Under the pieces are notes generated by a model. It ran no database searches. It was given only the letters and a program-made list of their open reading frames with translations, and was not told where the DNA came from. From contig JADMKE010000003.1 of the NCBI GenBank assembly GCA_018780035.1, forward strand, positions 210,753 through 274,752: a DNA stretch of 64,000 bases, read 5' to 3'. Origin of the DNA: Candidatus Sericytochromatia bacterium (GTDB taxonomy: Bacteria; Cyanobacteriota; Sericytochromatia; UBA7694). Shown one piece after another: positions 27,525 through 41,041 of the stretch. The first letter of the stretch is position 1, and the number at the start of each line of letters is the position of its first letter. Made by a program: the position numbers and the translations under genes.

Positions 27525-27597
27525 GGCTTCCTCGTTCTAACAGACAGATTCTCAGGTCATGCTAACAGATGGGATCCGAGAATACAAGCAGTTGAGA

Positions 27598-28164
27598 TCA
27601 GTGTTTGAGCGGGGTAAGTCCCAAATCCAGGAGGCATTTTTGAAAAAGCGCTTCAGCGGAGATCTCAGGGCTGACCTCTAAGACAAGCTCTGGATTGAGG
27701 GGCCATTCTGGTTCAATATCTATTCCCACCACATTCTGAATTTCACCCGCAAGTCCGCGGCTGTAGAGTTGTTTGGGATTTCGCTGCAAGAGTACCTCAA
27801 ATGGGGGCTTTAAAACGATTTCGGCATACCCAGGCAAATGCTGCCGGTTCCAAGCTTGAACCTCGTGAAAGAGCGAGATCGTGGCGCAGACCACATTGAT
27901 CCCCTGAATGGCGAGCATATGACTAAGATGACTGTACCGCCAAGCCAAATCCAAGCGTTCAGTTCGGGAATAGCCAGTTTTGCCAAAGACTTCGCGTAAG
28001 ACATCCCCATCGAGGTAGACCACGGCTAGTCCTTGAGTGCGAACAAACTGAAAGAGCTGTCGTCCCAGGGTGCTTTTTCCCGAGCCGGCCAACCCAGTAA
28101 TCCAATACACAGTGGGAATTTCTGAGCGCGGTTCGGGACGCTGAAACGCTGATGAAAAGGGCAT
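27598..28164 (-). CDS. cysC: Adenylylsulfate (APS) kinase
   Basis: P-loop GLAGSGKST and overall APS-kinase length and pattern. There is no adjacent ATP sulfurylase. Confidence 0.88.
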   Translation of the reverse strand: MPFSSAFQRPEPRSEIPTVYWITGLAGSGKSTLGRQLFQFVRTQGLAVVYLDGDVLREVFGKTGYSRTERLDLAWRYSHLSHMLAIQGINVVCATISLFHEVQAWNRQHLPGYAEIVLKPPFEVLLQRNPKQLYSRGLAGEIQNVVGIDIEPEWPLNPELVLEVSPEISAEALFQKCLLDLGLTPLKH

Positions 28165-28258: not shown

Positions 28259-30043
28259 ATGAATATTAGTCAAGTTTTTGATCCCCGATTTACGCCTCCA
28301 CTCCATCTCGATACGGATCCACCACTGGCTACAGATGTTTTTTTAATTGTTTTAGATGCCCATTCTTCCATCCAAATTGCTTATCAATGGTGTTTGGCTT
28401 TTTTGCATCAGTTTACCCAATCCGATCAGGTAAGTTTATTGATACTGGCAGACCCTCTGCATATTGGTCATTTACTTGATCATTTAATGAACAAACTTGA
28501 ACAATTGGAATTGCCCAATTCCGCGCCAGATTTAGTGATCTGGTCAGAAGAAATTGCAGAAACAGATGAACCAGCTTTATATGCCCGCTGTTTGGCATAT
28601 TTGGATTGCAATTCAAGAGATGAAATTTCACTTCCATTACTCAAAGCTATTTTTATGAATAAGCAAGTGGTTTGTTTTAAAGGTAAAGCAACAGAAGAGT
28701 GGATAAAACCCGGATATGGGTATTTTTTAAATCACTTAACTGATACGGAAACGGCTTATCGTCAGGCGTTATTTGAGCTTTATCACCGTTTGCTCAAACT
28801 TTATCCGCGCAAACTGGCAAGCAATTATTTAGCAAAAAATCCACATTTTACTTTGCCGTTTGAGATCGAACTCAATATTCAATCATTCAGTCCCACAGAT
28901 TTTAGAACACAAACAATGGGGATCTATGAACAAGGCTATGTAAAAGAAGCTGCCATGCTTCTGGTCTATTGGGCCCAGAACCACCCGCTGGGTATCTCTG
29001 CGGTTATCGATAATAATAACTTCTGGTTGAAAATATTAAAAGATGCCAGATTATATGAACCATTAAAAATTATAAACAAACATATAAATGCAAATAATCC
29101 AGAAAATGAATTTCTTTTATTGGCAGAAATTCTTATTCAAGAAGGAAATATTGAAGAAGCGGTTCAAAATTATCACAAAGTATTAAGCATAAATCCTTAT
29201 GAAATGAATGCCAAAGTAGGATTTGAGAAAGCCAATTTAATCCTTAAGCGAAGATCAGAAATTCCGCCCATATTTCTAAATGGCATCGGTAACCCAGCAA
29301 GTGAGTATATTAGTATCTTACTCTCTCGGGGTCTGGATATCCCGCGAATGAGTATTTCATCGGGAATCGGAATCTTTGAACTGGTCGTTGATGTGTATTC
29401 TCTTGAAAAATTAGCGCAAGGGGGCTGCTTGGCCAAAGACCATTTATCGCCAAGTGATGTAAATCTTTTTGCGCTTACCCGTTATTTAGACAAAATGATT
29501 TTGGGGCTGAGAGATCCCCGTGGCAGTTTGGTTTCTTGTGTTGTCTATGAAAGTTTTTTGAACAGCGAAGACAAAGCGAGTAAAGACGAAAATCTATACA
29601 CTGCTCGCGCCATGTTTTCAGATAAAGCTGAGTGGATAGACCATTTTTTATCACTAAATTTTCATCAAAAATGCGATAAAATGATAGAAGATGGTACGTT
29701 TGAACATTATTTGAATGATGTTGTTAACTGGTTGGATGTTGCTCAATATTATCCTATTTTCATTTACACCTTTGAAGAGTTTAAACAGGATGAAATGGGG
29801 GTAATTCAAAATATTTTAAACTATTATGACCTCTCTTCAGATTATTTTCGATTTCCCTTTACACAGGCAGATCGCCAAGGTTCCGTCTTTAGCAGCACTC
29901 CTGATACGGCCTCTCCAAATTACACTTTGCGCCGGGGAAATCCCTATGAATGGCACAGTGTTTTGACACCTGCTCAATTAGAGAAAACCACTTCTCTCAT
30001 GCCCCATGGCCTCTGTAAGAAGATGGGGTGGTTAGAAATTTAA
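28259..30043 (+). CDS. Large fusion protein: N-terminal Rossmann-like/TPR-like region + C-terminal sulfotransferase-like domain
   Basis: The C-terminal half carries an RDPR (3'-phosphate-binding-like) motif and a terminal RRGNPYEWHSV resembling the sulfotransferase RKG..G.W motif. It is AT-rich and a paralogue of the next gene. Confidence 0.55.
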   Translation: MNISQVFDPRFTPPLHLDTDPPLATDVFLIVLDAHSSIQIAYQWCLAFLHQFTQSDQVSLLILADPLHIGHLLDHLMNKLEQLELPNSAPDLVIWSEEIAETDEPALYARCLAYLDCNSRDEISLPLLKAIFMNKQVVCFKGKATEEWIKPGYGYFLNHLTDTETAYRQALFELYHRLLKLYPRKLASNYLAKNPHFTLPFEIELNIQSFSPTDFRTQTMGIYEQGYVKEAAMLLVYWAQNHPLGISAVIDNNNFWLKILKDARLYEPLKIINKHINANNPENEFLLLAEILIQEGNIEEAVQNYHKVLSINPYEMNAKVGFEKANLILKRRSEIPPIFLNGIGNPASEYISILLSRGLDIPRMSISSGIGIFELVVDVYSLEKLAQGGCLAKDHLSPSDVNLFALTRYLDKMILGLRDPRGSLVSCVVYESFLNSEDKASKDENLYTARAMFSDKAEWIDHFLSLNFHQKCDKMIEDGTFEHYLNDVVNWLDVAQYYPIFIYTFEEFKQDEMGVIQNILNYYDLSSDYFRFPFTQADRQGSVFSSTPDTASPNYTLRRGNPYEWHSVLTPAQLEKTTSLMPHGLCKKMGWLEI

Positions 30044-31851
30044 TGACACAACAGTCACTTATTCAAGAAACTTCTGAATGGATTGAAAAATACCAACCTC
30101 TTTCTGTGCCCCCGATTGCAAAATGGGCAGAACAGTTCCAAAGTGTTTTTTTGGTTATTGACTCCTGTTTTGAATCCCTTGAATTGGCAGAACTGTGTCG
30201 CCAATTTCTTGAAACGCATCTGGAAAATAAGTCCACGGCACTCATCATCGCCCGAAGTGCGCGTGAAACAATGGATTTGACGATACCCATTCACACTTGT
30301 TTAATCCAAATTAATAATAGCCAAAATCCAACTGATTTTTTTAAGCTGCTTGCCAGTGTGCATGCCTTGATTTTGCCCAACTTAAGAGAAGAGATTCAAT
30401 CAGAGGCTCTTGCTGCCTTATTAATGAATCGTCCTGTGCTCTTGTATCAGATCCCCCAGACGCAATATGATTGGGGAGAAGGTCTTTTAATACCCACTCA
30501 GATCGGATTTAAAGGGCTCTTGAACAGCTTTATTTCGCGCAGAGAATTATTAAGACCCCGTCAGCTTTTGCTGGATGTTCCAAATCTTAAAGCCGCTGTC
30601 TTTGCTTCAGGATTATTGGCGTATTTTCCCAATCGACCCGATTTGGAAACCATTGAAGCCTATATGAACGCTGGATATTTTGAACAGGCAGGGGTTTTAG
30701 CCGTAACTTTGTTGCGCAATTTACATTGGTTAAATGAAGAGTGGCAGCCAGAAAAAGGGCTGAAAATTATGAAAGCCTGTCTTTTGGGGAAAAAATATTT
30801 TGAGGCAATTAAAATTGGTCGAAAAATACTTTCATTCATGCCTGAAAATAGTGCTTTGGCACTGTATTTGGCCGTCGCTTTTTGGGGGATAAAAGACTTT
30901 ATTCAGGCCCAACTATTTTTAGAGAGAAGTCTATCTGCTGAAGATAAAACAGAGACAAAGAAAGAATTTGAGAATATTATTTTAGTTGACGAATTAAATA
31001 TTAAAATAAATAAATCTATTTCAAAATGTCTTGAATTACCAATAATTATTTTTAACCCTATTTCCAGGTTGTCAGCGTCTCATTTTATCGCCCAAACCTT
31101 ATCTCAATCTTTATCATTGCCACTTGTTCATCTCTCTACTGGCTTGGAAATAGGAACTTCAAATACGCTTCATTTTGAACGTACAGCAGAGTTGATTTAT
31201 AAAAAGCAAGGTGCTCTGGCCTTTGACCGCTGGCCGGCAACAGAAACCAATCACTATTTTTTACTTAAATTTTTCAAAAGTATGGTTGTACATGTGCGAG
31301 ACCCACGCAGCATTTTGGTCTCTTTGGGTATTTACCTCCATCATCTCTTAGAGCTGGATAAAAAAGCAGAGCTTCCAACTCAGTTTCAGAGATCGCTCAA
31401 ATTGATTCATTGGGATCTGCGTTTGCGCAGTTTTTCAGCCATGGTTCCCGGCCCAAAACAGATAGAATATGGCTTGGAATCGGGTCTTTTCCAAGCTTAT
31501 TTAAATGAAATATTGGCTTGGCTAGAATTAGAAAAAACCTTTCCATCTAGCTTTAAAATCTTGATTACAAGCTATGAGCAATTGATAAAAAATCAGGCAT
31601 CTTACTTTAAACAAATCATTGATTTTTATCAAATTAACCCCGATTTTTTTGACTATCAGGTAGAATCAATTAATAGTTTGAATTCTGTTTTTGGTCCTAC
31701 TCCAAACCCTGATTCCCCCCATTATTTTTTTCGCAGGGGTGATCCAAATGAATGGACCCAATTTGTTTCTGAATCCCAAAAAAAGCAGATGACAAATGCA
31801 ATTCCCAATGCCTTGTTTGAACGCTTTGAATGGGATCCCGCGCCGAGATAA
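30043..31851 (+). CDS. Paralogous fusion protein with C-terminal sulfotransferase-like domain
   Basis: Motifs VHVRDPRSILVS and FFRRGDPNEWTQF match the upstream paralogue, and the N-terminal segments also align (SVFLVIDSCFESLE vs DVFLIVLDAHSSIQ). TAATG stop/start overlap. An alternative GTG start lies at 30028. Confidence 0.55.
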   Translation: MTQQSLIQETSEWIEKYQPLSVPPIAKWAEQFQSVFLVIDSCFESLELAELCRQFLETHLENKSTALIIARSARETMDLTIPIHTCLIQINNSQNPTDFFKLLASVHALILPNLREEIQSEALAALLMNRPVLLYQIPQTQYDWGEGLLIPTQIGFKGLLNSFISRRELLRPRQLLLDVPNLKAAVFASGLLAYFPNRPDLETIEAYMNAGYFEQAGVLAVTLLRNLHWLNEEWQPEKGLKIMKACLLGKKYFEAIKIGRKILSFMPENSALALYLAVAFWGIKDFIQAQLFLERSLSAEDKTETKKEFENIILVDELNIKINKSISKCLELPIIIFNPISRLSASHFIAQTLSQSLSLPLVHLSTGLEIGTSNTLHFERTAELIYKKQGALAFDRWPATETNHYFLLKFFKSMVVHVRDPRSILVSLGIYLHHLLELDKKAELPTQFQRSLKLIHWDLRLRSFSAMVPGPKQIEYGLESGLFQAYLNEILAWLELEKTFPSSFKILITSYEQLIKNQASYFKQIIDFYQINPDFFDYQVESINSLNSVFGPTPNPDSPHYFFRRGDPNEWTQFVSESQKKQMTNAIPNALFERFEWDPAPR

Positions 31852-31882
31852 TTAAAGCCAATTTTAAGCTGAGAAGGAAGAA

Positions 31883-32641
31883 TTGATGATGAAAACCGAA
31901 TGGAATTATACTGAACTCGCAGAATCTTATTTAGAGCGTCCTGATTATTCGGAAGCTGCAGTCCATGAAATGCTCGCCCAGATGCAATTGCCCGAAAAAG
32001 CCAAGGTCTGTGATGTGGGAGCCGGCGTTGCTCATTTGACCAAAGTTCTGGCTCGCAGCGGTTTGGTGGTTGATGCGGTTGAGCCCAACGACCGGATGCG
32101 TGAATTGGGCCAAGTTCAAACCCGCTCCTTTGATCAGGTTACCTGGTTTGAAGGTACGGGAGAGGTGACGGGGCGCCCAGATTCGACGTATCAACTGGTT
32201 ACTTTTGGTTCTTCTTTTAATGTCACAGATCGTTTGAAGGCCCTGGCTGAAACCCGTCGAATTTTGGTGCCCGCAGGTTGGTTTGCCTGTATGTGGAACC
32301 ACCGAAATCTCGAAGACCCCATCCAAAAGTCGATTGAAAATGTGATAATAAAGTCCATTCCCAATTATGCTTACGGAACCCGTCGGGAGGACCAGCGCCA
32401 ATTTCTCGAAGAGAGTGGCTTTTTTGACACAGTCTTCGCTTTAGAAGGCAATGTTATCCACCGTCAAAGCCGAGAAGCGTGTTTGACGGCTTGGCGTTCG
32501 CATGCCACTTTGCAAAGACAAGCGGGGGACCGTTTCTCTCAGGTCATTCAAGACATTGATGCGCATTTAGAAACATTGGGCCTAAAGGAGTTAGAAATTC
32601 CTTACACCACACGCATTTGGTTCGGCTCTGTAAAGGCTTAA
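31883..32641 (+). CDS. Class I SAM-dependent methyltransferase
   Basis: Motif I VCDVGAGVAHLT and motif post-I VVDAVEPN. Length is 252 aa. Confidence 0.78.
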   Translation: MMMKTEWNYTELAESYLERPDYSEAAVHEMLAQMQLPEKAKVCDVGAGVAHLTKVLARSGLVVDAVEPNDRMRELGQVQTRSFDQVTWFEGTGEVTGRPDSTYQLVTFGSSFNVTDRLKALAETRRILVPAGWFACMWNHRNLEDPIQKSIENVIIKSIPNYAYGTRREDQRQFLEESGFFDTVFALEGNVIHRQSREACLTAWRSHATLQRQAGDRFSQVIQDIDAHLETLGLKELEIPYTTRIWFGSVKA

Positions 32642-32649
32642 CTTCTTTC

Positions 32650-34953
32650 ATGCGTAGCAAAGCAGAAACGCTTCAATTTTTACACGGTCAACTCAGTTCA
32701 GCAACCGTTTTGCCGCTTTACTGTTTTAACCTAAATCAATGGCAAAACCAACGAGAACAGATTTGGCTTGACTTGGCCGAGTTAACTTGGACCAAGTTGC
32801 CTGTGATCGTTCGCAGCAGTGCTCTTAACGAAGACAGTGAGCTCACGTCTATGGCGGGACATTATTGTTCAGTTTTAAATGTCTCTGGAAAATATGCCTT
32901 GGAACAGGCGATTGAGCAGGTTGCAGCTGGCTTTCAAGGTCGCACGGATGCCGACCAAATTTTTATTCAACCCATGTTGAGTCAAATCGCTTTAAGTGGG
33001 GTGGCTTTTAGTCAGGAGCCCAGTACGGGCATTCCCTGTTTGGTCTTTAATTACCAGGAATGTAGCCAAGATACGACGGCGGTTACAGGGGGGCATTCAA
33101 ATGAACTCAATACCTGGCATTATTACCTTCACAACAATCCCACTCCTCCCCAATCCAGGTTCAGGCCTCTGCTGGATTTGGTCAGCGAATTACAGCTAAA
33201 ACTGGGAATTTCTGCCCTGGATTTGGAAGTGGCTTTGCTGCAAAATGGCCAATGGGTACTTTTGCAAGTCCGACCCTTGGTGCTAGAAAACAGCTTGGAT
33301 GGCAGTCAGCACCTCAACCACATGCTTGAATTACAGGGTTTTCTCAAACCGATGCAGTCCCCCCATCCTTTTTTATATGGCCAGCACACAGTTTATGGTG
33401 TGATGCCTGATTGGAATCCTGCTGAGATCATCGGGATTCGGCCACGACCTTTGGCCCGCAGTTTATACCAAGAGTTGATTACCGATAGTATTTGGGCCTA
33501 TCAACGTCACAATTATGGCTACCGCAATTTGCGCAGTTTCCCCTTGATGGTTGATTTGGGGGGCTGTCCTTATATTGATGTGAGGGTCAGCTTTAACTCA
33601 TTTATTCCAGCCACTTTGCCACCAGCATTGGCTGAAAAATTGGCCGATTATTATCTCAAGCGTTTGGTCGAAACACCCAGTTACCACGACAAAGTTGAGT
33701 TTGAAATTATTTATTCTTGTTATACCCTGGATTTGCCCCAACGCCTAAAAGCCCTTCAGGATCATGGATTTAGCCAGGAGGAATCTGATTTATTGGCAGA
33801 AAGTTTGCGACTTTTAACCAATAAAATTTTGCATCAAGAAACCGGACTTTGGCAAAAAGATATCGCCAAACTCGAGATCTTGACCCAACGGCGAGAAACT
33901 ATCTGCTCTGCAGATCTTGGGCCGATTGATCGCATTTATTGGTTGCTCGAAGATGGCAAACGTTATGGCACTTTGCCTTTTGCCGGCCTCGCACGGGCAG
34001 GATTTATTGCTGTTCAAATGCTCAATTCGTTGGTGCAAATTGGTGCCTTGGACCCTTCCGAACGCTCGCTATTTATGCAAAGTTTGGATACCGTCAGCAG
34101 CCGGATTCAACGCGATTTTCAAGCAATGAACCGCAGCGATTTTTTAAAGATCTATGGCCATCTTCGGCCAGGCACCTATGATATTCTCTCAGAGCGCTAT
34201 GATCAGGCGCCAGATCGCTATTTTGGCGAAGCCATACAACCCACCGTTCACCCCCCATTTAGCCTGCGGCTCGAACAGCTCAAGCTGATCCGTTCTCATC
34301 TCCAAGAACATGGTTTAAATTTAGATGTTTTGGAGCTCTTCGACTTTATGAAAGCGGCAATTGAAGGCCGTGAATACGCCAAATTTTTATTTACCCGCAA
34401 TCTCAGCGATGTTTTGGAAGAAATTGCAGGGCTCGGCAGACAAGCTGGGATGAGCAGAGAAGATTGTTCTTTTTTGGATATTCAATCCCTGCTGCGTTTG
34501 TTAAATACCAGTGGCGATCTCAACCAAGCGATTAAACACAGTGTGGAAGCAGGCAAAGCCCAGTACAGCTTAACCCAATCCCTGTTATTGCCCCCTCTGA
34601 TTACCCAACCTGAAGATATCTGGCAATTTGAACTTCAGCCAGGTGAGCCCAATTTTATTACGCTCAAACGGGCCAAAGGCCCTGTCTGCTTTGTGGGCGC
34701 TGCGCCTGAAAGCCTGAAGGGAACGATCTTGCTCATACCCAGTGCCGATCCTGGTTACGATTGGATTTTTGGCTATGGGATTGCGGGTTTGATCACGCTT
34801 TATGGCGGAGTCAATTCACATATGGCGATACGGGCAGGTGAAATGGGCATTCCCGCCGTGATCGGCGCAGGCGAAGTGCTCTATTCCCAATGGCAAAAAG
34901 CCCGTGAATTGGAGCTGGATTGTGCCACGCGGCAGGTCAGGGTTTTAGCATGA
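32650..34953 (+). CDS. PEP-synthase/pyruvate-phosphate-dikinase-like His-phosphotransferase lacking the C-terminal PEP/pyruvate TIM-barrel domain
   Basis: The N-terminal PPDK_N-type ATP-grasp region (LPVIVRSSALNEDSELTSMAGHYCSVLNV) is paired with a C-terminal PEP-utilisers mobile His domain (GGVNSHMAIRAGEMGIPAVIGAG). There is no PEP-utilizers_C TIM barrel. Confidence 0.78.
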   Translation: MRSKAETLQFLHGQLSSATVLPLYCFNLNQWQNQREQIWLDLAELTWTKLPVIVRSSALNEDSELTSMAGHYCSVLNVSGKYALEQAIEQVAAGFQGRTDADQIFIQPMLSQIALSGVAFSQEPSTGIPCLVFNYQECSQDTTAVTGGHSNELNTWHYYLHNNPTPPQSRFRPLLDLVSELQLKLGISALDLEVALLQNGQWVLLQVRPLVLENSLDGSQHLNHMLELQGFLKPMQSPHPFLYGQHTVYGVMPDWNPAEIIGIRPRPLARSLYQELITDSIWAYQRHNYGYRNLRSFPLMVDLGGCPYIDVRVSFNSFIPATLPPALAEKLADYYLKRLVETPSYHDKVEFEIIYSCYTLDLPQRLKALQDHGFSQEESDLLAESLRLLTNKILHQETGLWQKDIAKLEILTQRRETICSADLGPIDRIYWLLEDGKRYGTLPFAGLARAGFIAVQMLNSLVQIGALDPSERSLFMQSLDTVSSRIQRDFQAMNRSDFLKIYGHLRPGTYDILSERYDQAPDRYFGEAIQPTVHPPFSLRLEQLKLIRSHLQEHGLNLDVLELFDFMKAAIEGREYAKFLFTRNLSDVLEEIAGLGRQAGMSREDCSFLDIQSLLRLLNTSGDLNQAIKHSVEAGKAQYSLTQSLLLPPLITQPEDIWQFELQPGEPNFITLKRAKGPVCFVGAAPESLKGTILLIPSADPGYDWIFGYGIAGLITLYGGVNSHMAIRAGEMGIPAVIGAGEVLYSQWQKARELELDCATRQVRVLA

Positions 34954-35570
34954 CTTCCAGTTTAAACCAACACCCTTGGCTGGCAATCACCCAACGCGTT
35001 GAGATCGATGCCAAAACGGGTGAACGGCGAGATGCGCTTGATCAGCGCTGGGTTGATTTTATTTTGCTTGCAGGATTTTTGCCTTTGCTTTTACCCAACT
35101 CGCTTGCTGCTGCTCAAGCCCTTTTAGCGGCGTGTCGGGTTCAAGGTATTGTGTTAACTGGCGGCAATAGTCTGCAGAGCTGTGGTGGCAATGCACCTGA
35201 GCGAGATGAATTGGAGTTTTGGCTTCTGAATCAGGCTCCAAAACAGCATTGGCCACTGCTGGGCGTCTGCCGAGGAATGCAAGTCATTCAGAGCCATTTG
35301 GGCGTTGCCTTGGAGCCTGTCAGTGACCAGATTTTAGCCCTGCAAACGATTCAGATCTCAGGAAAAAACCAAGTCGTGAATAGTTATCACAGTTGGGGGA
35401 CGCGTGTAGAACACCCCGAACTCAAGACCTGGGCTCAAACGGAGGATGGGATGATTAAAGCGATTAAACATATCGAGCGACCCTGGTGGGGGATTATGTG
35501 GCATCCCGAACGCCTGACCCCCTTTCGCAGCGAAGATTTGACCTTGTTTCGTGAAATCTTTAAGCCATGA
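34950..35570 (+). CDS. Class I glutamine amidotransferase-like / peptidase C26 gamma-glutamyl hydrolase family protein
   Basis: Nucleophile elbow GVCRGMQ and the His in WHPE are present. The ATGA start/stop overlap with the upstream gene suggests translational coupling. Confidence 0.75.
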   Translation: MTSSLNQHPWLAITQRVEIDAKTGERRDALDQRWVDFILLAGFLPLLLPNSLAAAQALLAACRVQGIVLTGGNSLQSCGGNAPERDELEFWLLNQAPKQHWPLLGVCRGMQVIQSHLGVALEPVSDQILALQTIQISGKNQVVNSYHSWGTRVEHPELKTWAQTEDGMIKAIKHIERPWWGIMWHPERLTPFRSEDLTLFREIFKP

Positions 35571-36343
35571 GCCCCGTTCAACATGGCATCATTCTGGCTG
35601 CTGGCAGGGGCAGCCGCTTGGGAGCGATGACAGAAGCCCTGCCGAAGGGGCTGGTTGAATTGGGGGGGCGCCCACTTTTAAACTGGCAAATCGACGCTCT
35701 GCGCCACTCGGGATTGAAAGATTTGGGGATTGTGCGGGGATACCGGGCCGAGGCCTTGTCCTTCCTCGGTTTGCAAACATTTGAGAACCCCCGCTGGCAA
35801 CAGACCCAGATGGTCAGGTCTTTGGCCTGTGCAGGTGATTGGTTGCAGCAATACCCGTGTTTGCTGAGCTATTCTGATATTTTGACTTCAGCAGCCTGTT
35901 TGCGGGCTTTGGCTGATTGTCCCGGTGAATTGGTGATCAGTTCAAATCAGGGCTGGCGCGCCCTTTGGCAGGCCCGTTTTGCCGATCCTCTGGCAGATGC
36001 TGAGAGCTTTAAAACCAATGGACAAGGACAATTGCGTGAAATCGGTGCCCGTGCCAAGACCTTGGATGAGATCGAAGGACAGTATATGGGCCTGCTCAAA
36101 ATCACCCCCCAGGCCTGGAAATGGATTTCAAATTTATTGGCAGAAATGGAGCCGGAGCAGGCCGACCGCTTGGATATGACCAGTTTATTACAAACTTTGC
36201 TTCAGCGGGGATATCCCATTCAGGTTTTGCCCGTAAATGCACCTTGGCTGGAAATAGATACCTGCGAAGATCTGGCGTATTACCAACATTGTTTAAAAAT
36301 TGGCAAGCTGACACTGCCCATGCAAGACCCGGTGCTGTGGTAA
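35567..36343 (+). CDS. LicC-like nucleotidyltransferase (cytidylyltransferase for a phospho-headgroup)
   Basis: N-terminal GIILAAGRGSRLG and C-terminal W.EIDT.EDL are characteristic of phosphocholine/aminoethylphosphonate cytidylyltransferase-type NTP transferases. ATGA overlap with the upstream gene. Confidence 0.72.
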   Translation: MSPVQHGIILAAGRGSRLGAMTEALPKGLVELGGRPLLNWQIDALRHSGLKDLGIVRGYRAEALSFLGLQTFENPRWQQTQMVRSLACAGDWLQQYPCLLSYSDILTSAACLRALADCPGELVISSNQGWRALWQARFADPLADAESFKTNGQGQLREIGARAKTLDEIEGQYMGLLKITPQAWKWISNLLAEMEPEQADRLDMTSLLQTLLQRGYPIQVLPVNAPWLEIDTCEDLAYYQHCLKIGKLTLPMQDPVLW

Positions 36344-36379: not shown

Positions 36380-36997
36380 ATGAAAATCCTGGCCGTTTGT
36401 GGTACTACCCACCACGAAAGCAATTCAGGCCAAATCACTGAAATCATTGCCGCCGCGGCACGCTCGGCTGGGGCTGAAGTGGATGTGTTGGATTTATTGG
36501 CTTCGCCCTTGCCGCTTTTTCGCACAGATCAGAGTTATGAAAATGACCAGATTGTGACCGAGGTTCGCCAAGCCTGCCAAGCAGCAGATGCCTTTATCTT
36601 GGTCTCTCCGGAGTACCACGGTTGTATGACTGGTTGGATGAAAAATTTTCTCGATTTTCACTACCATGAATTTGCGGGCAAACTCTTTGTCCTGGCCGCT
36701 ACCACAGGCGGTAGCTTGGGAGTGAGCTGTATTACTCAAATGCGTGTGGCAGTTCAGCATTGCCATGGTTGGTCCTTGCCTTATCAAGCGGCCGCCCGCG
36801 AAGCGGATTTTGACAGCAAAGGGCAATTGGCCAATGATTCAGTGCGTGAGCGTTTGGAGCGCATGGGCCGCGATTTGGTGATCTATGGAAAACTCTTGCG
36901 CGACCAATTCACAATTGACCGCCAGGGGGCCCTTGAAACCCATGACACCCCCCATGAGTGGGGCTTTGCTGGCTGGTATTCCCGCGGTTCAGATTAA
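36380..36997 (+). CDS. NAD(P)H-dependent FMN reductase (flavodoxin-like fold)
   Basis: Pattern MKIL.V.GT....S......I.......G.E....L. and LVSPEYHG. GGAGG RBS. Confidence 0.75.
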   Translation: MKILAVCGTTHHESNSGQITEIIAAAARSAGAEVDVLDLLASPLPLFRTDQSYENDQIVTEVRQACQAADAFILVSPEYHGCMTGWMKNFLDFHYHEFAGKLFVLAATTGGSLGVSCITQMRVAVQHCHGWSLPYQAAAREADFDSKGQLANDSVRERLERMGRDLVIYGKLLRDQFTIDRQGALETHDTPHEWGFAGWYSRGSD

Positions 36998-37015: not shown

Positions 37016-38644
37016 GTGTGGGAATTCGGCTGGTTAAAAAAACACCCTTGGACGCTGGTATTAGCGATTCTGGGGCTTTGCATACATTTGGGGCTGACCC
37101 TACAATTAATCCCGCTCGCAAGGCAATTGGAGCCTTTGCTTCGCGAATTTCAACTTTCAGCTTTTGTCTCTTTTATTGCGCTTTTGTTGGGGATTTATGC
37201 CGCCAAAGGGCTTTTTGATTGGCTCCAACGGGTTGCCTGGAGCCAGTTGGTCTTGCAGCGCAGCATGGAGCGCCGCTTGGACCTTTACAGCTATTTATTG
37301 CAAATGCCACTGAGCCGTTGGCAAAATGAGCAAAGTGGCGATCTTCAAGCCCGACTGACTGTGGATCTGCAAGAGCTTGAAAATGCCAGTTTAAACCAAC
37401 TCAGCCGATTTTTTCCCAATTTGCTGCAGGTAATTGTGCTCATATTCTATCTGATCTGGCTCAATCCGATTCTGACTTTGGTGACAGCCTTGCTATTGCC
37501 TTTGGGATCCCTCAGTTTGAATTTAACCAGCTTGCGATTGCGGCACTGGTCCGAAACTTTGCAAACGGAGCGGGGACAACTCTTTGCTGAAATCGCTGAC
37601 AGTTTACAGGCCTTGCCCAGTCTTTGGCCCTTGCAGGTCAGCTCATGGCTCGAAAACAGGCTGAATCAGATCCAAAAAAAATTAATGCTCGCCCAACGCA
37701 AACAAGTCGCTTGGCGGGCCCTGCAAGGACCCCTGCTGGGTTGGGTTCAAGCTTTGGCTCTGGGTTTGGTGCTGCTAAGTGGGGCTTGGCAGGTGCAAAG
37801 TGGCAGGGCGAGCGTCGCCGATTTGCTGGCCTTTGGCACAGCTTTGGCGCTGAGCATTGATCCTGTCTTGGCCTGTGTCGAAGCCTGGGGTCTGGTTCAA
37901 AGTGCTCTGCCTGCTCAAAAGAGACTGGCGGAGCTCTTGCCAACACAGCGACAGCCCTCTGCCTCCGTCTTCACTCTGATGCCCCAAGAAAGTCCCCATT
38001 TACTTGAAATCAGATCGGTTGATTATCGCTATCCTGGCCAGCCTGCCCTGTTTCAAAACCTCAATCTGGTCTTGCCTGCCCATAAATGGAGCGCATTACT
38101 TGGAGCTTCGGGGGGGGGCAAATCCACCCTTTTGCATCTTTTGGCTGATGTTTTGCCGATGCAAACAGGCCAGCGATTGATACGAGAGGATCTTCACAAG
38201 GCCGTCTTGGTGCCCCAAAAATCGGCCTTCCTCAATTTAAGTGTGGGGGAAAATCTCTGTTTGGGTCGAGACATTAACGCCGATGACTTGGATGAAGTCT
38301 TGGAAATCTGTCAAATCAACACCTTTCTCAATAATTTGCAGTTGGGGTTGGCCAGCCCGATGGGCAATCAGGGCAGCCTCTTTTCTGGGGGTGAGCGACA
38401 GCGCATCGCTCTGGCAAGGGCTTTATTGGCCAAGCCCCAGCTTTTGCTATTAGACGAAGCCACCTCTGAATTGGACCCACTGACAGAGGGCAATTTGCTG
38501 AAAGCCCTTAAACGAATGCGGCCGGATTTGACCTGCCTGTGGGTGAGCCACCGCCCTGAGAGTTTGCAAGAAGTCGAATACTTTCTCTCGCTCACACATG
38601 GTACAATCAGCGTAATCGACAGCAGAGACGGATCACATGTTTGA
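37016..38644 (+). CDS. ABC exporter, fused permease-ATPase
   Basis: An N-terminal 6-TM exporter domain is followed by an NBD with Walker A GASGGGKST, signature FSGGERQRIALARAL and Walker B LLLLDEATS. It has a GTG start. Confidence 0.82.
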   Translation: MWEFGWLKKHPWTLVLAILGLCIHLGLTLQLIPLARQLEPLLREFQLSAFVSFIALLLGIYAAKGLFDWLQRVAWSQLVLQRSMERRLDLYSYLLQMPLSRWQNEQSGDLQARLTVDLQELENASLNQLSRFFPNLLQVIVLIFYLIWLNPILTLVTALLLPLGSLSLNLTSLRLRHWSETLQTERGQLFAEIADSLQALPSLWPLQVSSWLENRLNQIQKKLMLAQRKQVAWRALQGPLLGWVQALALGLVLLSGAWQVQSGRASVADLLAFGTALALSIDPVLACVEAWGLVQSALPAQKRLAELLPTQRQPSASVFTLMPQESPHLLEIRSVDYRYPGQPALFQNLNLVLPAHKWSALLGASGGGKSTLLHLLADVLPMQTGQRLIREDLHKAVLVPQKSAFLNLSVGENLCLGRDINADDLDEVLEICQINTFLNNLQLGLASPMGNQGSLFSGGERQRIALARALLAKPQLLLLDEATSELDPLTEGNLLKALKRMRPDLTCLWVSHRPESLQEVEYFLSLTHGTISVIDSRDGSHV

Positions 38645-38930
38645 ATCGGATTTTTCGCAATTGCCTGTACAGGGGTTCATACCCAGGCCAAAAGCATGGC
38701 CCCAAAACTTTCCCCAAGAACTCGTAAGCCCTGAAAAAAGCTTGCGAACTCGGGCATTGGGAGAATTGGCCGAAAGCAAGTCAACGCATAAAATCGCTGT
38801 GCTGGTAGAATTGCTCAAACACGAACAAGATCCAGACTTATACCTTCAGGCCAAAGCACTTTTATTGCAATTGTCAGACTCTGCCAAGACCCATTCCCGT
38901 TGGGACCCCTATGGCCAATTTCGGATCTGA
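38637..38930 (+). CDS. Small HEAT-repeat-like protein
   Basis: 97 aa. An ATGTTTGA overlap with the ABC gene stop suggests coupling. The HEAT-like motif is LRTRALGELAESKSTHKIAVLVELLKHEQDPDLYLQA. Confidence 0.4.
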   Translation: MFESDFSQLPVQGFIPRPKAWPQNFPQELVSPEKSLRTRALGELAESKSTHKIAVLVELLKHEQDPDLYLQAKALLLQLSDSAKTHSRWDPYGQFRI

Positions 38931-38947
38931 GAAACAGGCCCAGAGAA

Positions 38948-41002
38948 ATGCCTAAAAATACCTCTTTGATGGCACGCAGGCACCTGCGCGAGGCAGATGC
39001 CTTGAAACATTTGGGCCAATTTGATGCCGCAGAACGCCTTTACCGGCGGATTTTGCGCCTGGATCCCCAGTCTTTTGAAGCTGCTTACCAATTGGGTTTG
39101 GTCGCAGAAAAAAAAGGATTCCCAGATCGGGCAGCCCACTTTCACCGCCGTGCCATTGTTCACAATCGTCGCTATGCCCCACCTTATCTCCGACTGGGCC
39201 AGATTTACGAGCTTAACAATGATTTTTACAAGGCCTTGATGGCGTATGGTGAATATTTATTGCGAATTCCCAAAAGTGTAAGTGGTGATGCCTATCTGCG
39301 GTTTGCCCGAATGTTGACACTTTTGGAACAAGACGAAATGGCATTGCCCTTTTATCTGCAATCGCTGGAATTTATGCCTGCAGATGCCACCACCTATTTT
39401 TTGTTGGCAGAGACCTTGCAAAACCGGGGGGATTTGGATGGGGCACTTGAATGTTTTATGGCCTTGGGTAAAATCAACCCGATTGCATTGCCGCTGATTT
39501 CTTTTTTTATGGGCTATTTGCTCGAAAAAAATGGCGAATATACCGCCGCCCTTAAATGTTATGATCAGGCCCTGGAACATCCTGGGCAATTACAGATCTG
39601 GAAACTCAAACGGGATTTGGCCTACCCGCTGATTATGCAAAGCCGCGAAGAAATTGAAGCCTTTGAGAAAAAACTCAAAAAAGTCCTTTTCGATTTCCGC
39701 TTTGCCCTCTTAAAAAACCCTTTGAGCCCCAACAACCAAAATCACTATTATTTCAGCATGTTGCAGTTGAATATTGTACATATTGCCTACCATCACTACA
39801 ATCCTTTGCCTTTGCGGCGTGAATTTGCCGAGTTATTGCCTCAGTTTTTGCCACCTGTCAATTTGCCTGCTTGGCAACCGCGCAGCCATGCTGGTCATTT
39901 GATTCATCTCGGCCTGATCTGTGCTCCGAAAAGCCTAAATATGGCCTTTGCCTATGCGGGTGCGCTCTTTAATGAATTGGACCCTTCCCGCTACCGGATC
40001 ACCGTCTTTTGTCATTCGCCCAAAGTCAGCCAGATTTTTAACCCCCAGAACCGCTATTGCTTTAACCATCCCAATGCCAGTTATCGGGTGATCTCGCGGG
40101 ATTATGCTGAAGCAGCCAAACAGATTCGGGCAGAAGAATTGGATTTGCTGATGTTTACCGAACCCAGCTGGGACTCGTTTCAATATTCGCTCTCCTCTCT
40201 GCGCTTGGCCCGCGCCCAGGGCACGTCTTGGATGAATCCCGGCACCACCGGCATGCCCGAGATGGACTATTTTTTCTCTAGCGAATTAATGGAGCGCCCA
40301 GGCGCTGAAAGTGATTATTCAGAAACCCTGGTCAAATTTAAAACCCTGCCCTCTCATTTGCCGCTCTATCCCTTTCCAGAGGATCCTGTTTCCCGTTCGG
40401 ATTATGGCTTGGAAGGGGTTAAACGCCTCTATAGCTGTCCTCAGACTTTGCTCAAATTCCACCCGGATTTTGATCCGATTGTGGCTGAAATCTTGCGCCG
40501 TGACCCCGAGGGCCATCTCGCGCTGTTGGCGACCAAACAGCAGGGACAGCTCTGCGATATTTTGCTCAAACGCTTTCAAACAACCATTCCAGACGTGATG
40601 GATCGCATTTGGGTTTTACCCGAAATGCCCGTGCCAGACTTTTTGGGACTCTTGCGCGTCAGTGATGTGGTCCTTGATCCGCTTTATTATGGTGGGGGCA
40701 CCACCACTTACCAGGCCATGGCTTATGGTATTCCGATCATCACCCTGCCCACCGAACGGATGGTCGGACGAATCACGTCTGCCCTTTACAAAAAGATGGG
40801 GCTCACCGACACCGTCGCCACAGATCCCGAAAACTATATCCAATTGGCCAATCGCTATGCCATGAACCCCGAATTGCGGGCCGGCATTGTCGAAGGGACT
40901 TTGGCTCAGAGCATTTTATTTGAAGACCGGGCGATCATTGCTGAATTTTCAGAATTTATGGAAGATGTTGTCGCGGGGCGGCGCACCCCCAGATCCAATT
41001 AA
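38948..41002 (+). CDS. TPR-repeat glycosyltransferase, GT41 (O-GlcNAc-transferase/SPINDLY-like) C-terminal domain
   Basis: N-terminal TPRs. The C-terminal LDPLYYGGGTTTYQAMAYGIPIITLP matches the OGT-family catalytic region. The start could also be 38900. Confidence 0.68.
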   Translation: MPKNTSLMARRHLREADALKHLGQFDAAERLYRRILRLDPQSFEAAYQLGLVAEKKGFPDRAAHFHRRAIVHNRRYAPPYLRLGQIYELNNDFYKALMAYGEYLLRIPKSVSGDAYLRFARMLTLLEQDEMALPFYLQSLEFMPADATTYFLLAETLQNRGDLDGALECFMALGKINPIALPLISFFMGYLLEKNGEYTAALKCYDQALEHPGQLQIWKLKRDLAYPLIMQSREEIEAFEKKLKKVLFDFRFALLKNPLSPNNQNHYYFSMLQLNIVHIAYHHYNPLPLRREFAELLPQFLPPVNLPAWQPRSHAGHLIHLGLICAPKSLNMAFAYAGALFNELDPSRYRITVFCHSPKVSQIFNPQNRYCFNHPNASYRVISRDYAEAAKQIRAEELDLLMFTEPSWDSFQYSLSSLRLARAQGTSWMNPGTTGMPEMDYFFSSELMERPGAESDYSETLVKFKTLPSHLPLYPFPEDPVSRSDYGLEGVKRLYSCPQTLLKFHPDFDPIVAEILRRDPEGHLALLATKQQGQLCDILLKRFQTTIPDVMDRIWVLPEMPVPDFLGLLRVSDVVLDPLYYGGGTTTYQAMAYGIPIITLPTERMVGRITSALYKKMGLTDTVATDPENYIQLANRYAMNPELRAGIVEGTLAQSILFEDRAIIAEFSEFMEDVVAGRRTPRSN

Positions 41003-41041
41003 AACGGAACACCCCGTTTGAGCTTTGGGTTGGGCCTTACA

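What the first reader, a model, noticed from the sequence alone, without database searches (positions are those of the whole stretch)
32650..34953. PEP-synthase/PPDK-like enzyme without the TIM-barrel PEP-binding domain, the same architecture as rifampicin phosphotransferase-type small-molecule kinases
The protein combines the N-terminal ATP-grasp (PPDK_N) region and the C-terminal swivelling His domain (GGVNSHMAIRAGEMGIPAVIGAG). The ~400-aa middle region is of unknown specificity and the PEP/pyruvate-binding barrel is absent. From established knowledge, this truncated architecture transfers the ATP beta-phosphate through phospho-His to a non-PEP acceptor, as rifampicin phosphotransferase does. 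Its position directly upstream of a C26 hydrolase and a cytidylyltransferase, with ATGA-coupled starts, suggests it phosphorylates the substrate that is then CMP-activated. That would be an unconventional kinase for a CDP-headgroup pathway, which normally uses LicA-type kinases.
Basis: partly seen in the sequence, partly recalled or inferred. Interest (0 to 1): 0.7.

Follow-up and report, generated by a model that had tools for sequence, protein, structure and literature searches.

The report
Glutamine kinase of a phosphoramidate pathway
This gene is an orthologue of the Campylobacter L-glutamine kinase, the first enzyme of a known pathway that builds a phosphorus-nitrogen (phosphoramidate) donor for decorating surface sugars; here it sits in a non-photosynthetic relative of cyanobacteria, where NCBI labels it a PEP synthase.

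Summary
ORF 32650-34953 (767 aa) has a PPDK-type ATP-grasp N-terminus, a ~440-aa helical centre and a C-terminal swivelling His domain (His724), with no PEP/pyruvate barrel. It overlaps a C26/GATase gene by ATGA, and that gene overlaps a nucleotidyltransferase gene the same way.

The enzyme is not an unknown head-group kinase. It is an orthologue of Campylobacter jejuni Cj1418, L-glutamine kinase (EC 2.7.3.13). It is 43% identical over its full length to a Campylobacter orthologue and matches the same NCBIfam model (NF004508, 922 bits). It keeps 124 of 138 family-invariant residues.

Window 31880-36274 is collinear with Campylobacter Cj1419-Cj1418-Cj1417-Cj1416, and a Cj1415-like APS-kinase-type gene lies divergently upstream. 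In 80 genomes from many phyla, 68 have the four enzymes together. Elsewhere the kinase is fused to each of the three partners.

The likely chemistry is:
- Gln amide-N phosphorylation
- CMP transfer to give CDP-Gln
- release of glutamate to give CDP-amidate
- 3'-phosphorylation to give a PAPS-like donor

The known MeOPN transferases (Cj1421/22 family) are absent. Two low-GC sulfotransferase-like paralogues occupy their position and are untested candidates.

Verdict: a new member of a known kind.

The parts
32650..34953 (+). L-glutamine kinase orthologue (Cj1418-like), 767 aa: ATP-grasp domain (~aa 1-215 plus the conserved VMPDWNPAEIIG segment at 251-262), helical central domain (~216-655) and swivelling His domain (~656-767).
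   Evidence: Pfam PPDK_N and PEP-utilizers, with no barrel. NCBIfam NF004508 scores 922 bits against a cut-off of 501. It is 43% identical over its full length to a Campylobacter Cj1418 orthologue, which hits the same model at 1113 bits. 124 of 138 invariant residues are conserved. AF2 model. JGI names a 69%-identical homologue 'glutamine kinase'.
34804..34872 (+). Phospho-carrier motif GGVNSHMAIRAGEMGIPAVIGAG, with the presumed catalytic His724 (codon 34819-34821).
   Evidence: His724 and its neighbours G719, G720, N722, S723, M725, A726, R728 and E731 are invariant in 59 homologues. His724 aligns with His739 of the Campylobacter orthologue.
34950..35570 (+). Class-I glutamine-amidotransferase/C26-type hydrolase, 206 aa. 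Inferred gamma-glutamyl-CDP-amidate hydrolase (Cj1417-like). Cys107 lies in GVCRGMQ, and His185/Glu187 lie in MWHPER.
   Evidence: Its best NCBIfam hit is NF045546 GCDPHdlase (108 bits over the full length, below the cut-off of 250). It is 31% identical to the Campylobacter protein that scores 316 bits on that model. The start codon overlaps the kinase stop in an ATGA. A homologue is present next to the kinase in 72 of 80 genomes. It is fused to the kinase in P0228.
35567..36343 (+). Nucleotidyltransferase, 258 aa. Inferred CTP:phosphoglutamine cytidylyltransferase (Cj1416-like). LAAGRGSRL motif at aa 10-18.
   Evidence: Pfam NTP_transf_3. It is 32% identical over its full length to the Campylobacter Cj1416-like protein (E 2e-44). 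ATGA overlap. A homologue is present in 75 of 80 genomes. It is fused to the kinase in P0218 and P0226.
27598..28164 (-). APS-kinase-fold protein, 188 aa, with P-loop GLAGSGKST. Inferred cytidine diphosphoramidate 3'-kinase (Cj1415-like), transcribed divergently from the cluster.
   Evidence: Pfam APS_kinase. NCBIfam subfamily NF004041 scores 184.8 bits, whereas canonical apsK TIGR00455 scores 101.5, below its cut-off of 138.7. APS-kinase domains fused to glutamine-kinase homologues hit the same NF004041 model at 182-193 bits. A homologue is present in 76 of 80 genomes and shares an ORF with the kinase in 33. No Campylobacter Cj1415 sequence was available for a direct comparison.
31883..32641 (+). 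SAM-dependent methyltransferase, 252 aa (Cj1419-like). Presumed O-methylation of the phosphoramidate.
   Evidence: Pfam Methyltransf_11/25. It is 41% identical to the Campylobacter Cj1419-like protein and 33% to the Cj1420-like protein. A homologue is present in 69 of 80 genomes. The role is not proven even in C. jejuni (PMC11800397).
28259..30043 (+). ST594: a TPR plus C-terminal sulfotransferase-like protein. Candidate phosphoramidate transferase (inferred only).
   Evidence: Pfam Sulfotransfer_1 at aa 412-580. The family profile hits cytosolic sulfotransferases 7d1x and 7eov at E 2e-6. It occupies the position that Cj1422/Cj1421 hold in C. jejuni but shows no detectable homology to them. 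GC is 0.33-0.42 against ~0.50 in the flanks. The database holds only one other homologue.
30028..31851 (+). ST607: a paralogue of ST594 (25% identity over the full length). Second candidate transferase (inferred only).
   Evidence: BLASTP E 3e-36 against ST594. Pfam Sulfotransfer_1 at aa 419-592. The RDPR..LVS and RRG..EW motifs are conserved in all four family members. The same gene pair is present in the related contig L083 and absent from L001.

Best explanation
The gene encodes an orthologue of L-glutamine kinase (Cj1418, EC 2.7.3.13).

Mechanism of the kinase (established for the Campylobacter enzyme, inferred here): the ATP-grasp domain binds ATP. The swivelling domain's His724 picks up phosphate and carries it to the central domain. 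[quoted passage not shown]

The following steps are encoded around it:
1. The nucleotidyltransferase (35567-36343) uses CTP to make CDP-L-glutamine.
2. The C26/GATase-type hydrolase (34950-35570) removes glutamate, leaving cytidine diphosphoramidate.
3. The divergently encoded APS-kinase-like protein (27598-28164) phosphorylates its 3'-OH. This gives a PAPS-like activated phosphoramidate donor.

The phosphoramidate is then presumably transferred to a surface glycan and O-methylated by the Cj1419-like methyltransferase (31883-32641).

What is shown here: homology, conserved catalytic residues, collinearity, conserved neighbourhood and gene fusions.
What is inferred: the chemistry, the identity of the transferase and the acceptor.
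For: Homology of the kinase:
- 43% identity and 592 bits across all 767 residues to the kinase of a Campylobacter capsule locus (L082). That locus was retrieved by an exact match to the published cj1420 primer CS-1246.
- Both proteins match the NCBIfam equivalog model NF004508 far above its cut-off (922 and 1113 bits against 501). Every PEP-synthase, RPH or PigC model scores below 50 bits.
- The Campylobacter neighbour of that kinase passes the curated cut-off for gamma-glutamyl-CDP-amidate hydrolase (316 bits against 250). This anchors L082 as a genuine MeOPN locus.
- 124 of 138 residues that are invariant in 59 homologues are identical in the Campylobacter protein. The central domain is the best-conserved part. 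The catalytic His is aligned.

Locus and neighbourhood:
- tblastn of the five Campylobacter proteins (Cj1420- to Cj1416-like) hits the window only at 31880-36274, in the same order.
- In 80 GTDB species from many phyla, an APS-kinase-like gene lies within 10 kb of the kinase in 76, an NTase in 75, a C26 hydrolase in 72 and a methyltransferase in 69. 68 have the kinase and all three partner enzymes, and 61 also have the methyltransferase.
- Kinase homologues occur fused to an APS-kinase domain, to an NTP_transf_3 domain and to a C26/GATase domain.
- JGI names homologues 'glutamine kinase'.

Literature for the pathway: PMC11800397, PMC6429109, PMC10971088 and bioRxiv 10.1101/2024.11.05.622173.
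Against: - There is no biochemical evidence for this protein.
- The comparison is with a Campylobacter orthologue from a metagenome, not with the assayed NCTC 11168 protein itself. That sequence could not be fetched.
- The hydrolase reaches only 108 bits on NF045546, below the cut-off of 250, so NCBI would not call it an equivalog.
- The known MeOPN transferase family (NF058596/DUF2972) is absent from the window, so the fate of the donor here is unknown.
- The primary Raushel papers were not held. The details of His pyrophosphorylation and of beta-phosphate transfer therefore rest on my recollection and on the EC definition.
Confidence: 0.85

Rival explanations
1. Same enzyme family, but with a different acceptor or end product. 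The kinase would phosphorylate another amide or amine (for example a glutamine derivative). Alternatively, the phosphoramidate would end up unmethylated or on something other than a capsular sugar, such as LPS, a glycolipid, a protein or a secreted metabolite.
For: Identity to the Campylobacter enzyme is only 43%. The hydrolase falls below the NCBIfam equivalog cut-off. Cj1421/22-type transferases are absent. Neighbours vary across genomes: AMP-binding enzymes in 25 loci and DegT aminotransferases in 12. Unmethylated phosphoramides are reported in Xanthomonas and Shewanella LPS (PMC3907429).
Against: The central domain keeps 83 of 94 invariant residues. A gamma-glutamyl-type (GATase) hydrolase co-occurs in 72 of 80 genomes and is fused to the kinase in some. 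That only makes sense if the carrier is glutamine.
Confidence: 0.1
2. One reading: an unconventional kinase that phosphorylates an alcohol head-group (choline, ethanolamine, an amino alcohol or a sugar). The product would then be CMP-activated in a LicA/LicC-like CDP-headgroup pathway.
For: The best solved-structure sequence match of the NTase is LicC, the CTP:phosphocholine cytidylyltransferase (1jyk, E 7e-10, N-terminal 60 residues only). The genes are translationally coupled.
Against: The kinase, hydrolase, NTase and methyltransferase are each homologous to, and collinear with, Cj1418, Cj1417, Cj1416 and Cj1419. The model gives no role to the conserved GATase-type hydrolase or to the APS-kinase-like partner, which are present in 72 and 76 of 80 genomes.
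Confidence: 0.02
3. A genuine PEP synthase or pyruvate phosphate dikinase, as NCBI annotates it.
For: NCBI names P0001 'phosphoenolpyruvate synthase'. It shares the PPDK_N and PEP-utilizers domains.
Against: Sequence search finds no PEP-utilizers_C barrel, and neither does the structural model. PEP-synthase NCBIfam models score 39-49 bits against cut-offs of 600-880. The His domain is C-terminal rather than central.
Confidence: 0.01
4. A rifamycin-type antibiotic phosphotransferase, or another xenobiotic kinase.
For: The best solved-structure match is RPH-Lm, aligned over the full length (Foldseek E 3e-20).
Against: Identity is only 15%. NF041857 RIF_Ptrans_rph scores 33 bits against a cut-off of 999. 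The sequence match to RPH is confined to the His domain and a short ATP-grasp stretch. The gene sits in a conserved biosynthetic cassette.
Confidence: 0.01

Closest known systems
Cj1418, L-glutamine kinase of Campylobacter jejuni (EC 2.7.3.13), first step of O-methyl phosphoramidate (MeOPN) biosynthesis
   Same: - Full-length homology: 43% identity to a Campylobacter orthologue.
- The same NCBIfam model, NF004508.
- The same three-domain architecture without a barrel.
- An aligned catalytic His: His724 in the window protein, His739 in the Campylobacter protein.
- The same gene order, methyltransferase-kinase-hydrolase-cytidylyltransferase.
   Different: - The host is a Candidatus Sericytochromatia MAG rather than Campylobacter.
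- There is one methyltransferase rather than two.
- The Cj1415-like gene is divergent and upstream rather than downstream.
- No Cj1421/22-family transferase is present. Two sulfotransferase-like genes sit in that position.
- The protein has not been assayed.
Rifampin phosphotransferase (RPH-Lm; PDB 5hv1, 5fbs)
   Same: It is the best solved-structure match. The layout is the same: an ATP-grasp domain, an acceptor-binding domain and a C-terminal swivelling His domain. It works like this at the level of phospho-His relay.
PEP synthase / pyruvate phosphate dikinase
   Same: It shares the PPDK_N ATP-grasp domain and the PEP-utilizers phospho-His domain.
   Different: It lacks the PEP/pyruvate TIM-barrel domain. 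The domain order also differs.
Other barrel-less PPDK-like enzymes: TalE (N-P-bond-forming kinase of the phosphoramidon/talopeptin pathway), and PigC/RedH
   Same: These are PPDK-derived enzymes that act on small molecules. TalE also forms a P-N bond (PMC6482885).
   Different: The paper reports that TalE shares less than 20% identity with Cj1418. PigC and RedH models score 27-33 bits here.
APS kinase / PAPS / sulfotransferase system
   Same: The Cj1415-like protein has the APS-kinase fold. The literature describes the pathway product as CDP-phosphoramidate 3'-phosphate (PMC11800397). Its PAPS-like character is my inference. Sulfotransferase-like proteins flank the cassette here and in 8 of 80 other genomes.
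   Different: The group transferred would be phosphoramidate from a cytidine nucleotide, not sulfate from an adenosine nucleotide. No assay exists for the sulfotransferase-like proteins.

Membership tests
L-glutamine kinase (Cj1418 family, NCBIfam NF004508, EC 2.7.3.13) | Full-length sequence homology to a Campylobacter Cj1418 orthologue, and a match to the family model above its curated cut-off. | tested here: met
   43% identity and 592 bits over aa 1-766. NF004508 scores 922 bits against a cut-off of 501; the Campylobacter protein scores 1113 bits on the same model.
L-glutamine kinase (Cj1418 family, NCBIfam NF004508, EC 2.7.3.13) | ATP-grasp domain, family-specific central domain and C-terminal swivelling His domain, with no PEP/pyruvate barrel. 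| tested here: met
L-glutamine kinase (Cj1418 family, NCBIfam NF004508, EC 2.7.3.13) | The phospho-carrier histidine in the GG.NSHMAIR motif. I recall it as His737 in Cj1418; the paper was not held. | tested here: met
   His724 is invariant in 59 homologues and aligns with His739 of the 781-aa Campylobacter orthologue.
L-glutamine kinase (Cj1418 family, NCBIfam NF004508, EC 2.7.3.13) | Genomic association with the phosphoglutamine cytidylyltransferase, the gamma-glutamyl-CDP-amidate hydrolase and the CDP-amidate kinase. | tested here: met
   The window is collinear with the Campylobacter locus. Neighbours are conserved in 72-76 of 80 genomes. Fusions with all three partners exist. Caveat: the hydrolase is below the NF045546 cut-off.
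L-glutamine kinase (Cj1418 family, NCBIfam NF004508, EC 2.7.3.13) | Catalysis: ATP + L-Gln + H2O -> AMP + Pi + N5-phospho-L-Gln. | not testable with these tools
   This needs an enzyme assay.
Complete MeOPN system as in C. jejuni NCTC 11168 (Cj1415-Cj1422) | MeOPN transferase of the Cj1421/Cj1422 family (NF058596, DUF2972). | tested here: not met
   The Campylobacter proteins hit NF058596 at 688-714 bits and DUF2972. ST594 and ST607 do not hit it. BLASTP and hhalign show no relation. tblastn of Cj1421/22 finds nothing in the 64-kb window.
Complete MeOPN system as in C. jejuni NCTC 11168 (Cj1415-Cj1422) | An O-methyl phosphoramidate actually present on a glycan. | not testable with these tools
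   This needs HR-MAS NMR or mass spectrometry on cells. The organism is known only as a MAG.
PEP synthase / PPDK | A PEP-utilizers_C TIM-barrel domain that binds PEP/pyruvate. | tested here: not met
   There is no Pfam hit and no barrel in the model or the fold searches. TIGR01418 scores 39 bits against a cut-off of 740.
Rifamycin phosphotransferase (RPH) | A match to the RPH family model across the rifampin-binding domain. | tested here: not met
   NF041857 scores 33 bits against a cut-off of 999, and the match covers aa 690-740 only. The phmmer match to 5fbs is confined to two short stretches.
Canonical APS kinase (CysC), considered for 27598-28164 | A score above the apsK equivalog cut-off. 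| tested here: not met
   TIGR00455 scores 101.5 bits against a cut-off of 138.7. The protein instead falls in NF004041 (184.8 bits), the same subfamily as the domains fused to glutamine-kinase homologues.

The most novel reading that the evidence does not exclude
The two low-GC paralogues ST594 and ST607 (28259-31851) combine TPR repeats with a sulfotransferase-like domain. They are inserted exactly where Cj1422/Cj1421 sit in C. jejuni. They could be a new class of phosphoramidate transferases, unrelated in sequence to the known one. They would use 3'-phospho-cytidine diphosphoramidate the way sulfotransferases use PAPS. More broadly, the glutamine-kinase cassette, which a 2022 review still describes as C. 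jejuni-specific, would mark a widespread and chemically unexplored P-N surface decoration across many bacterial phyla. In that picture, sulfotransferase-fold proteins would be the usual transferases.
Probability: 0.3. Interest if true: 0.6.

Novelty: new member of a known kind. Interest (0 to 1): 0.3.

Why it matters
**Annotation.** NCBI names this protein "phosphoenolpyruvate synthase". That places it wrongly in central carbon metabolism. It is the committed step of phosphoramidate (P-N bond) biosynthesis.

**Distribution.** O-methyl phosphoramidate is treated in the literature I could read as a Campylobacter peculiarity, important as a phage receptor and immune modulator. These include Acidobacteriota, Pseudomonas, Paenibacillus, Lachnospiraceae, Planctomycetota, Chlamydiales and this Sericytochromatia MAG. 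P-N-decorated glycans may therefore be common in environmental bacteria.

**The open step.** Transfer of the phosphoramidate to its acceptor has not been reconstituted even in C. jejuni. It might be approached through the sulfotransferase-like neighbours seen here.

Tried and rejected
**Searches that did not deliver**
- The primary Raushel papers (PMC5629633, PMC6643271, PMC5938747, PMC5938751, PMC6643276) are not held. Pathway facts are cited from papers that summarise them.
- The AFDB50 fold library was unavailable. No annotated Cj1418 model could be matched.
- The PDB holds no Cj1418-family structure by sequence.
- The genome-contig scan returned only the 80 best loci, none from Campylobacter. 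I obtained Campylobacter loci instead by searching metagenome contigs for the published cj1420 primer.

**Tests of the sulfotransferase-like proteins**
- ST594 has only two database relatives, itself included.
- The AF2 model of ST594 failed (pLDDT 42), so no fold search was run on it.
- ST594 and ST607 show no relation to Cj1421/22 by BLASTP or hhalign.
- The Cj1421/22 profile finds nothing in the PDB.

**The recurrent neighbour family "fam21" (alignment A5)**
- It has no Pfam match.
- Its only PDB hits are non-significant ones to the Teg12/Teg14 sulfotransferases (E 0.3).
- The sulfotransferase-like reading of its motifs is by eye only.

**Readings rejected**
- PEP synthase/PPDK.
- RPH.
- A LicA-replacing head-group kinase. 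Reasons for all three are given under the rival explanations.

**Low-value result**
- The promoter and terminator scan of 27.4-41.2 kb was not informative. Terminator-like sites were at the shuffle expectation, and promoter-like sites were only moderately above it.
Full report
**1. What is in the sequence**

An intact ORF runs from ATG 32650 to TGA 34953 on the + strand and encodes 767 aa. An identical 767-aa protein exists at NCBI from a Candidatus Sericytochromatia MAG on a 406-kb contig. It is named "phosphoenolpyruvate synthase" there (taxonomy).

Pfam finds PPDK_N (aa 48-131) and the PEP-utilizers mobile domain (aa 690-760). It finds no PEP-utilizers_C.

An AlphaFold2 model built on 59 homologues (pLDDT 87.7, pTM 0.84) shows three parts: an ATP-grasp region, a ~440-residue all-helical central domain and a C-terminal swivel domain. 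There is no alpha/beta barrel.

- Foldseek against the PDB puts Listeria rifampin phosphotransferase first (E 3e-20, aligned along the whole chain, 15% identity). ATP-grasp ligases and the N-terminal parts of PPDK follow.

Both ATGA start/stop overlaps with the downstream C26/GATase and NTP_transf_3 genes are real.

**2. What it is**

The first lead came from NCBIfam.
- The kinase matches NF004508 (PRK05849, named only "hypothetical protein") over its full length, at 922 bits against a cut-off of 501. All PEP-synthase, RPH, PigC and RedH models score below 50 bits.
- The best family for the next gene is NF045546, gamma-glutamyl-CDP-amidate hydrolase.

That enzyme is Cj1417 of the C. jejuni O-methyl phosphoramidate (MeOPN) pathway. 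[quoted passage not shown] Cj1416 is the CTP:phosphoglutamine cytidylyltransferase. Cj1415 is the cytidine diphosphoramidate kinase. Together they make CDP-phosphoramidate 3'-phosphate from Gln, ATP and CTP (PMC11800397, PMC6429109, PMC10971088 and bioRxiv 10.1101/2024.11.05.622173). JGI already names homologues of the window protein "glutamine kinase", the closest at 69% identity.

I therefore searched metagenome contigs for the published cj1420 RT-PCR primer CS-1246 (PMC3907429). This returned two Campylobacter-type loci of GC 0.28.
- L081 has the NCTC 11168 order hddA-gmhA2-hddC-Cj1422-Cj1421-Cj1420-Cj1419.
- L082 carries Cj1420-Cj1419-Cj1418-Cj1417-Cj1416.
- The L082 hydrolase passes the NF045546 cut-off (316 bits against 250). 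The L081 transferases pass NF058596, "O-methyl phosphoramidate transferase". These are therefore genuine MeOPN loci.

Against the Campylobacter proteins:

| Window protein | Campylobacter counterpart | Identity | Support |
|---|---|---|---|
| Kinase | Cj1418-like | 43%, end to end | 592 bits |
| Hydrolase | Cj1417-like | 31% | E 6e-28 |
| Nucleotidyltransferase | Cj1416-like | 32%, full length | E 2e-44 |
| Methyltransferase | Cj1419-like | 41% | E 1e-60 |
| Methyltransferase | Cj1420-like | 33% | E 2e-40 |

- The Campylobacter kinase hits the same NF004508 model at 1113 bits.
- Of 138 residues invariant among 59 diverse homologues, 124 are identical in the Campylobacter protein, and most of the others are conservative changes.
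- The central domain is the best-conserved region: 46.6% identity, with 83 of 94 invariant residues kept. This is presumably the acceptor site.
- His724 aligns with His739 of the 781-aa Campylobacter protein.
- tblastn of the Campylobacter proteins against the whole window hits only 31880-36274, and the hits are collinear.

**3. Context across genomes**

The family is large. There are more than 7,000 word-sharing hits. At E<=1e-30 there are 1,561 representatives of 50%-identity clusters.

The 80 best loci span Acidobacteriota, Alpha-, Beta- and Gammaproteobacteria, Bacillota, Planctomycetota, Bacteroidota, Chlamydiales, Gemmatimonadota, Verrucomicrobiota and Melainabacteria-group genomes. Within 10 kb of the kinase they contain:

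| Neighbour | Loci (of 80) |
|---|---|
| APS-kinase-like gene | 76 (in the same ORF as the kinase in 33) |
| Nucleotidyltransferase | 75 |
| C26 hydrolase | 72 |
| Methyltransferase | 69 |
| Kinase plus all three partner enzymes | 68 |
| All five genes | 61 |

Kinase homologues also occur fused to an APS_kinase domain, to an NTP_transf_3 domain and to a C26/GATase domain.

The window's 188-aa APS-kinase-fold protein (27598-28164, minus strand) belongs to NCBIfam subfamily NF004041 at 184.8 bits. The fused domains fall in the same subfamily at 182-193 bits. It falls below the canonical apsK cut-off. I take it to be the Cj1415 equivalent. I could not compare it with Cj1415 itself.

**4. How it most likely works**

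- Shown here: homology, catalytic residues, collinearity, co-occurrence and fusions.
- Established for the Campylobacter enzymes and inferred here: ATP bound in the ATP-grasp domain phosphorylates His724. The swivel domain delivers the phosphate to the amide N of L-Gln held by the central domain. The products are phospho-Gln, AMP and Pi.
- Next steps, also inferred: the NTase adds CMP from CTP. The GATase-type hydrolase (Cys107 in GVCRGMQ; His185/Glu187 in MWHPER) releases glutamate. That leaves CDP-amidate, which the APS-kinase-like enzyme 3'-phosphorylates.
- From my own recollection, not from a held paper: the beta-phosphate origin of the transferred group, and a pyrophosphoryl-His intermediate.

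**5. What differs from Campylobacter**

The MeOPN transferase family (Cj1421/22, NF058596/DUF2972) is absent from the window.

In its place, between the Cj1415-like gene and the methyltransferase, lie two paralogous genes, ST594 and ST607.
- They are 25% identical to each other.
- Each has TPR repeats and a C-terminal Sulfotransfer_1-like domain. The RDPR..LVS and RRG..EW motifs are conserved.
- Their GC is 0.33-0.42, against ~0.50 around them.
- The pair is present in a related contig, L083. It is absent from the closest GTDB relative, L001, where the APS-kinase-like gene abuts the methyltransferase.
- Apart from ST594 itself, the 5.8-billion-protein collection holds only one relative, the L083 protein P0122.
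- They show no detectable homology to Cj1421/22.

The pathway's product is a 3'-phosphorylated nucleotide donor analogous to PAPS. A sulfotransferase-fold phosphoramidate transferase is therefore an attractive hypothesis, but it is untested.

Weak supporting observations:
- Sulfotransfer_1-like ORFs flank the cassette in 8 of the 80 other loci.
- CysQ-type Inositol_P phosphatases flank it in 7.
- An uncharacterised ~320-aa family (A5, found in 21 loci) carries GTGRxY and RHPLDSL motifs. Its only PDB hits, which are non-significant, are sulfotransferases.

The alternative is that ST594 and ST607 are ordinary PAPS-dependent sulfotransferases that happen to be inserted here. I cannot exclude it. 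The structure prediction for ST594 failed (pLDDT 42).

**6. Comparison with known systems, and novelty**

The protein meets every testable defining feature of the L-glutamine kinase family. It fails the defining features of PEP synthase/PPDK (no barrel) and of RPH (no family-model match).

It works like RPH only in the general phospho-His relay.

It is a new member of a known kind, in a lineage (Sericytochromatia) where I found no report of the pathway.

The acceptor, the role of the C26 protein and the pathway were wrong.

The broad distribution of the cassette contrasts with statements in the literature. MeOPN is said to be known only from Campylobacter (PMC6429109). The kinase is called "C. 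jejuni-specific" (PMC9561416). KEGG/JGI-style annotation already propagates the name, however, and a Borg preprint reports the cassette in archaeal elements.

**Scores.** Interest 0.3. The best explanation has confidence 0.85.

Noticed in passing
window 28259-31851 (+): Two paralogous genes, each with TPR repeats and a sulfotransferase-like domain, at GC 0.33-0.42 in a ~0.50 GC background. They look like a horizontally acquired insertion between the APS-kinase-like gene and the methyltransferase. They are present in contig L083 and absent from L001. The protein collection holds only one relative besides ST594 itself.
   Followed up: partly
L022:8119-9186, L002:6198-7352, L015:14559-15518 and 18 further loci (alignment A5): An uncharacterised protein family of ~320 aa with no Pfam match lies next to the glutamine-kinase cassette in 21 of 80 genomes, mostly Acidobacteriota. 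It has conserved GLFGTGRxY and YRHPLDSLL motifs that resemble the PAPS-binding motifs of sulfotransferases. Statistical support is lacking (best PDB hits are the Teg12/Teg14 sulfotransferases at E 0.3).
   Followed up: partly
P0218, P0226, P0228, P0094 (homologues): Glutamine-kinase homologues occur as fusions with an NTP_transf_3 domain, with a C26/GATase domain or with an APS_kinase domain at the N-terminus. These are three different Rosetta-stone architectures for one pathway.
   Followed up: yes
window 36380-36997 and 37016-38644 (+): An NADPH-dependent FMN reductase and an MsbA/HepA-like ABC exporter follow the cytidylyltransferase. They are also present downstream in the closest relative, L001, but are rare elsewhere: the reductase is in 1 of 80 loci and the exporter in 5 of 80. 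Their link to the phosphoramidate pathway is unknown.
   Followed up: partly
window 54736-63285 (-), with 53555-54739 (-): A 2,849-aa hybrid NRPS-PKS (TubC docking domain, C-A-PCP-KS-AT-KR-ACP-TE), followed by a clostripain-family C11 peptidase gene.
   Followed up: no
window ~27440-27525 (-), upstream of ORF 26414-27340: The release factor 2 gene (prfB) shows the classical programmed +1 frameshift site, CTT TGA C, preceded by GGAGG. The listed ORF therefore starts only at profile position 56.
   Followed up: partly
window 22872-25820 (-) and 38900-43948: The surroundings are a surface-glycan locus. It includes an O-antigen-ligase/IctB-like membrane protein, D-glycero-beta-D-manno-heptose-7-phosphate kinase (RfaE domain I), a TPR-GT41 glycosyltransferase and a 968-aa GT4-containing protein. 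This is consistent with a glycan acceptor for the phosphoramidate.
   Followed up: partly
L082:5729-8256: In this Campylobacter-type locus, the Cj1416-like gene is not followed by Cj1415. Instead there are two ORFs which, judged by eye, look like a cytidylyltransferase-PEP mutase fusion and a phosphonopyruvate decarboxylase. That would place phosphonate genes next to the phosphoramidate genes.
   Followed up: no
window 32650-34953 / protein P0001: The NCBI record names the protein 'phosphoenolpyruvate synthase', and NCBIfam NF004508 still carries the product name 'hypothetical protein'. Meanwhile the Campylobacter member of the same model is the characterised L-glutamine kinase family. This is an annotation gap that affects thousands of proteins.
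   Followed up: yes
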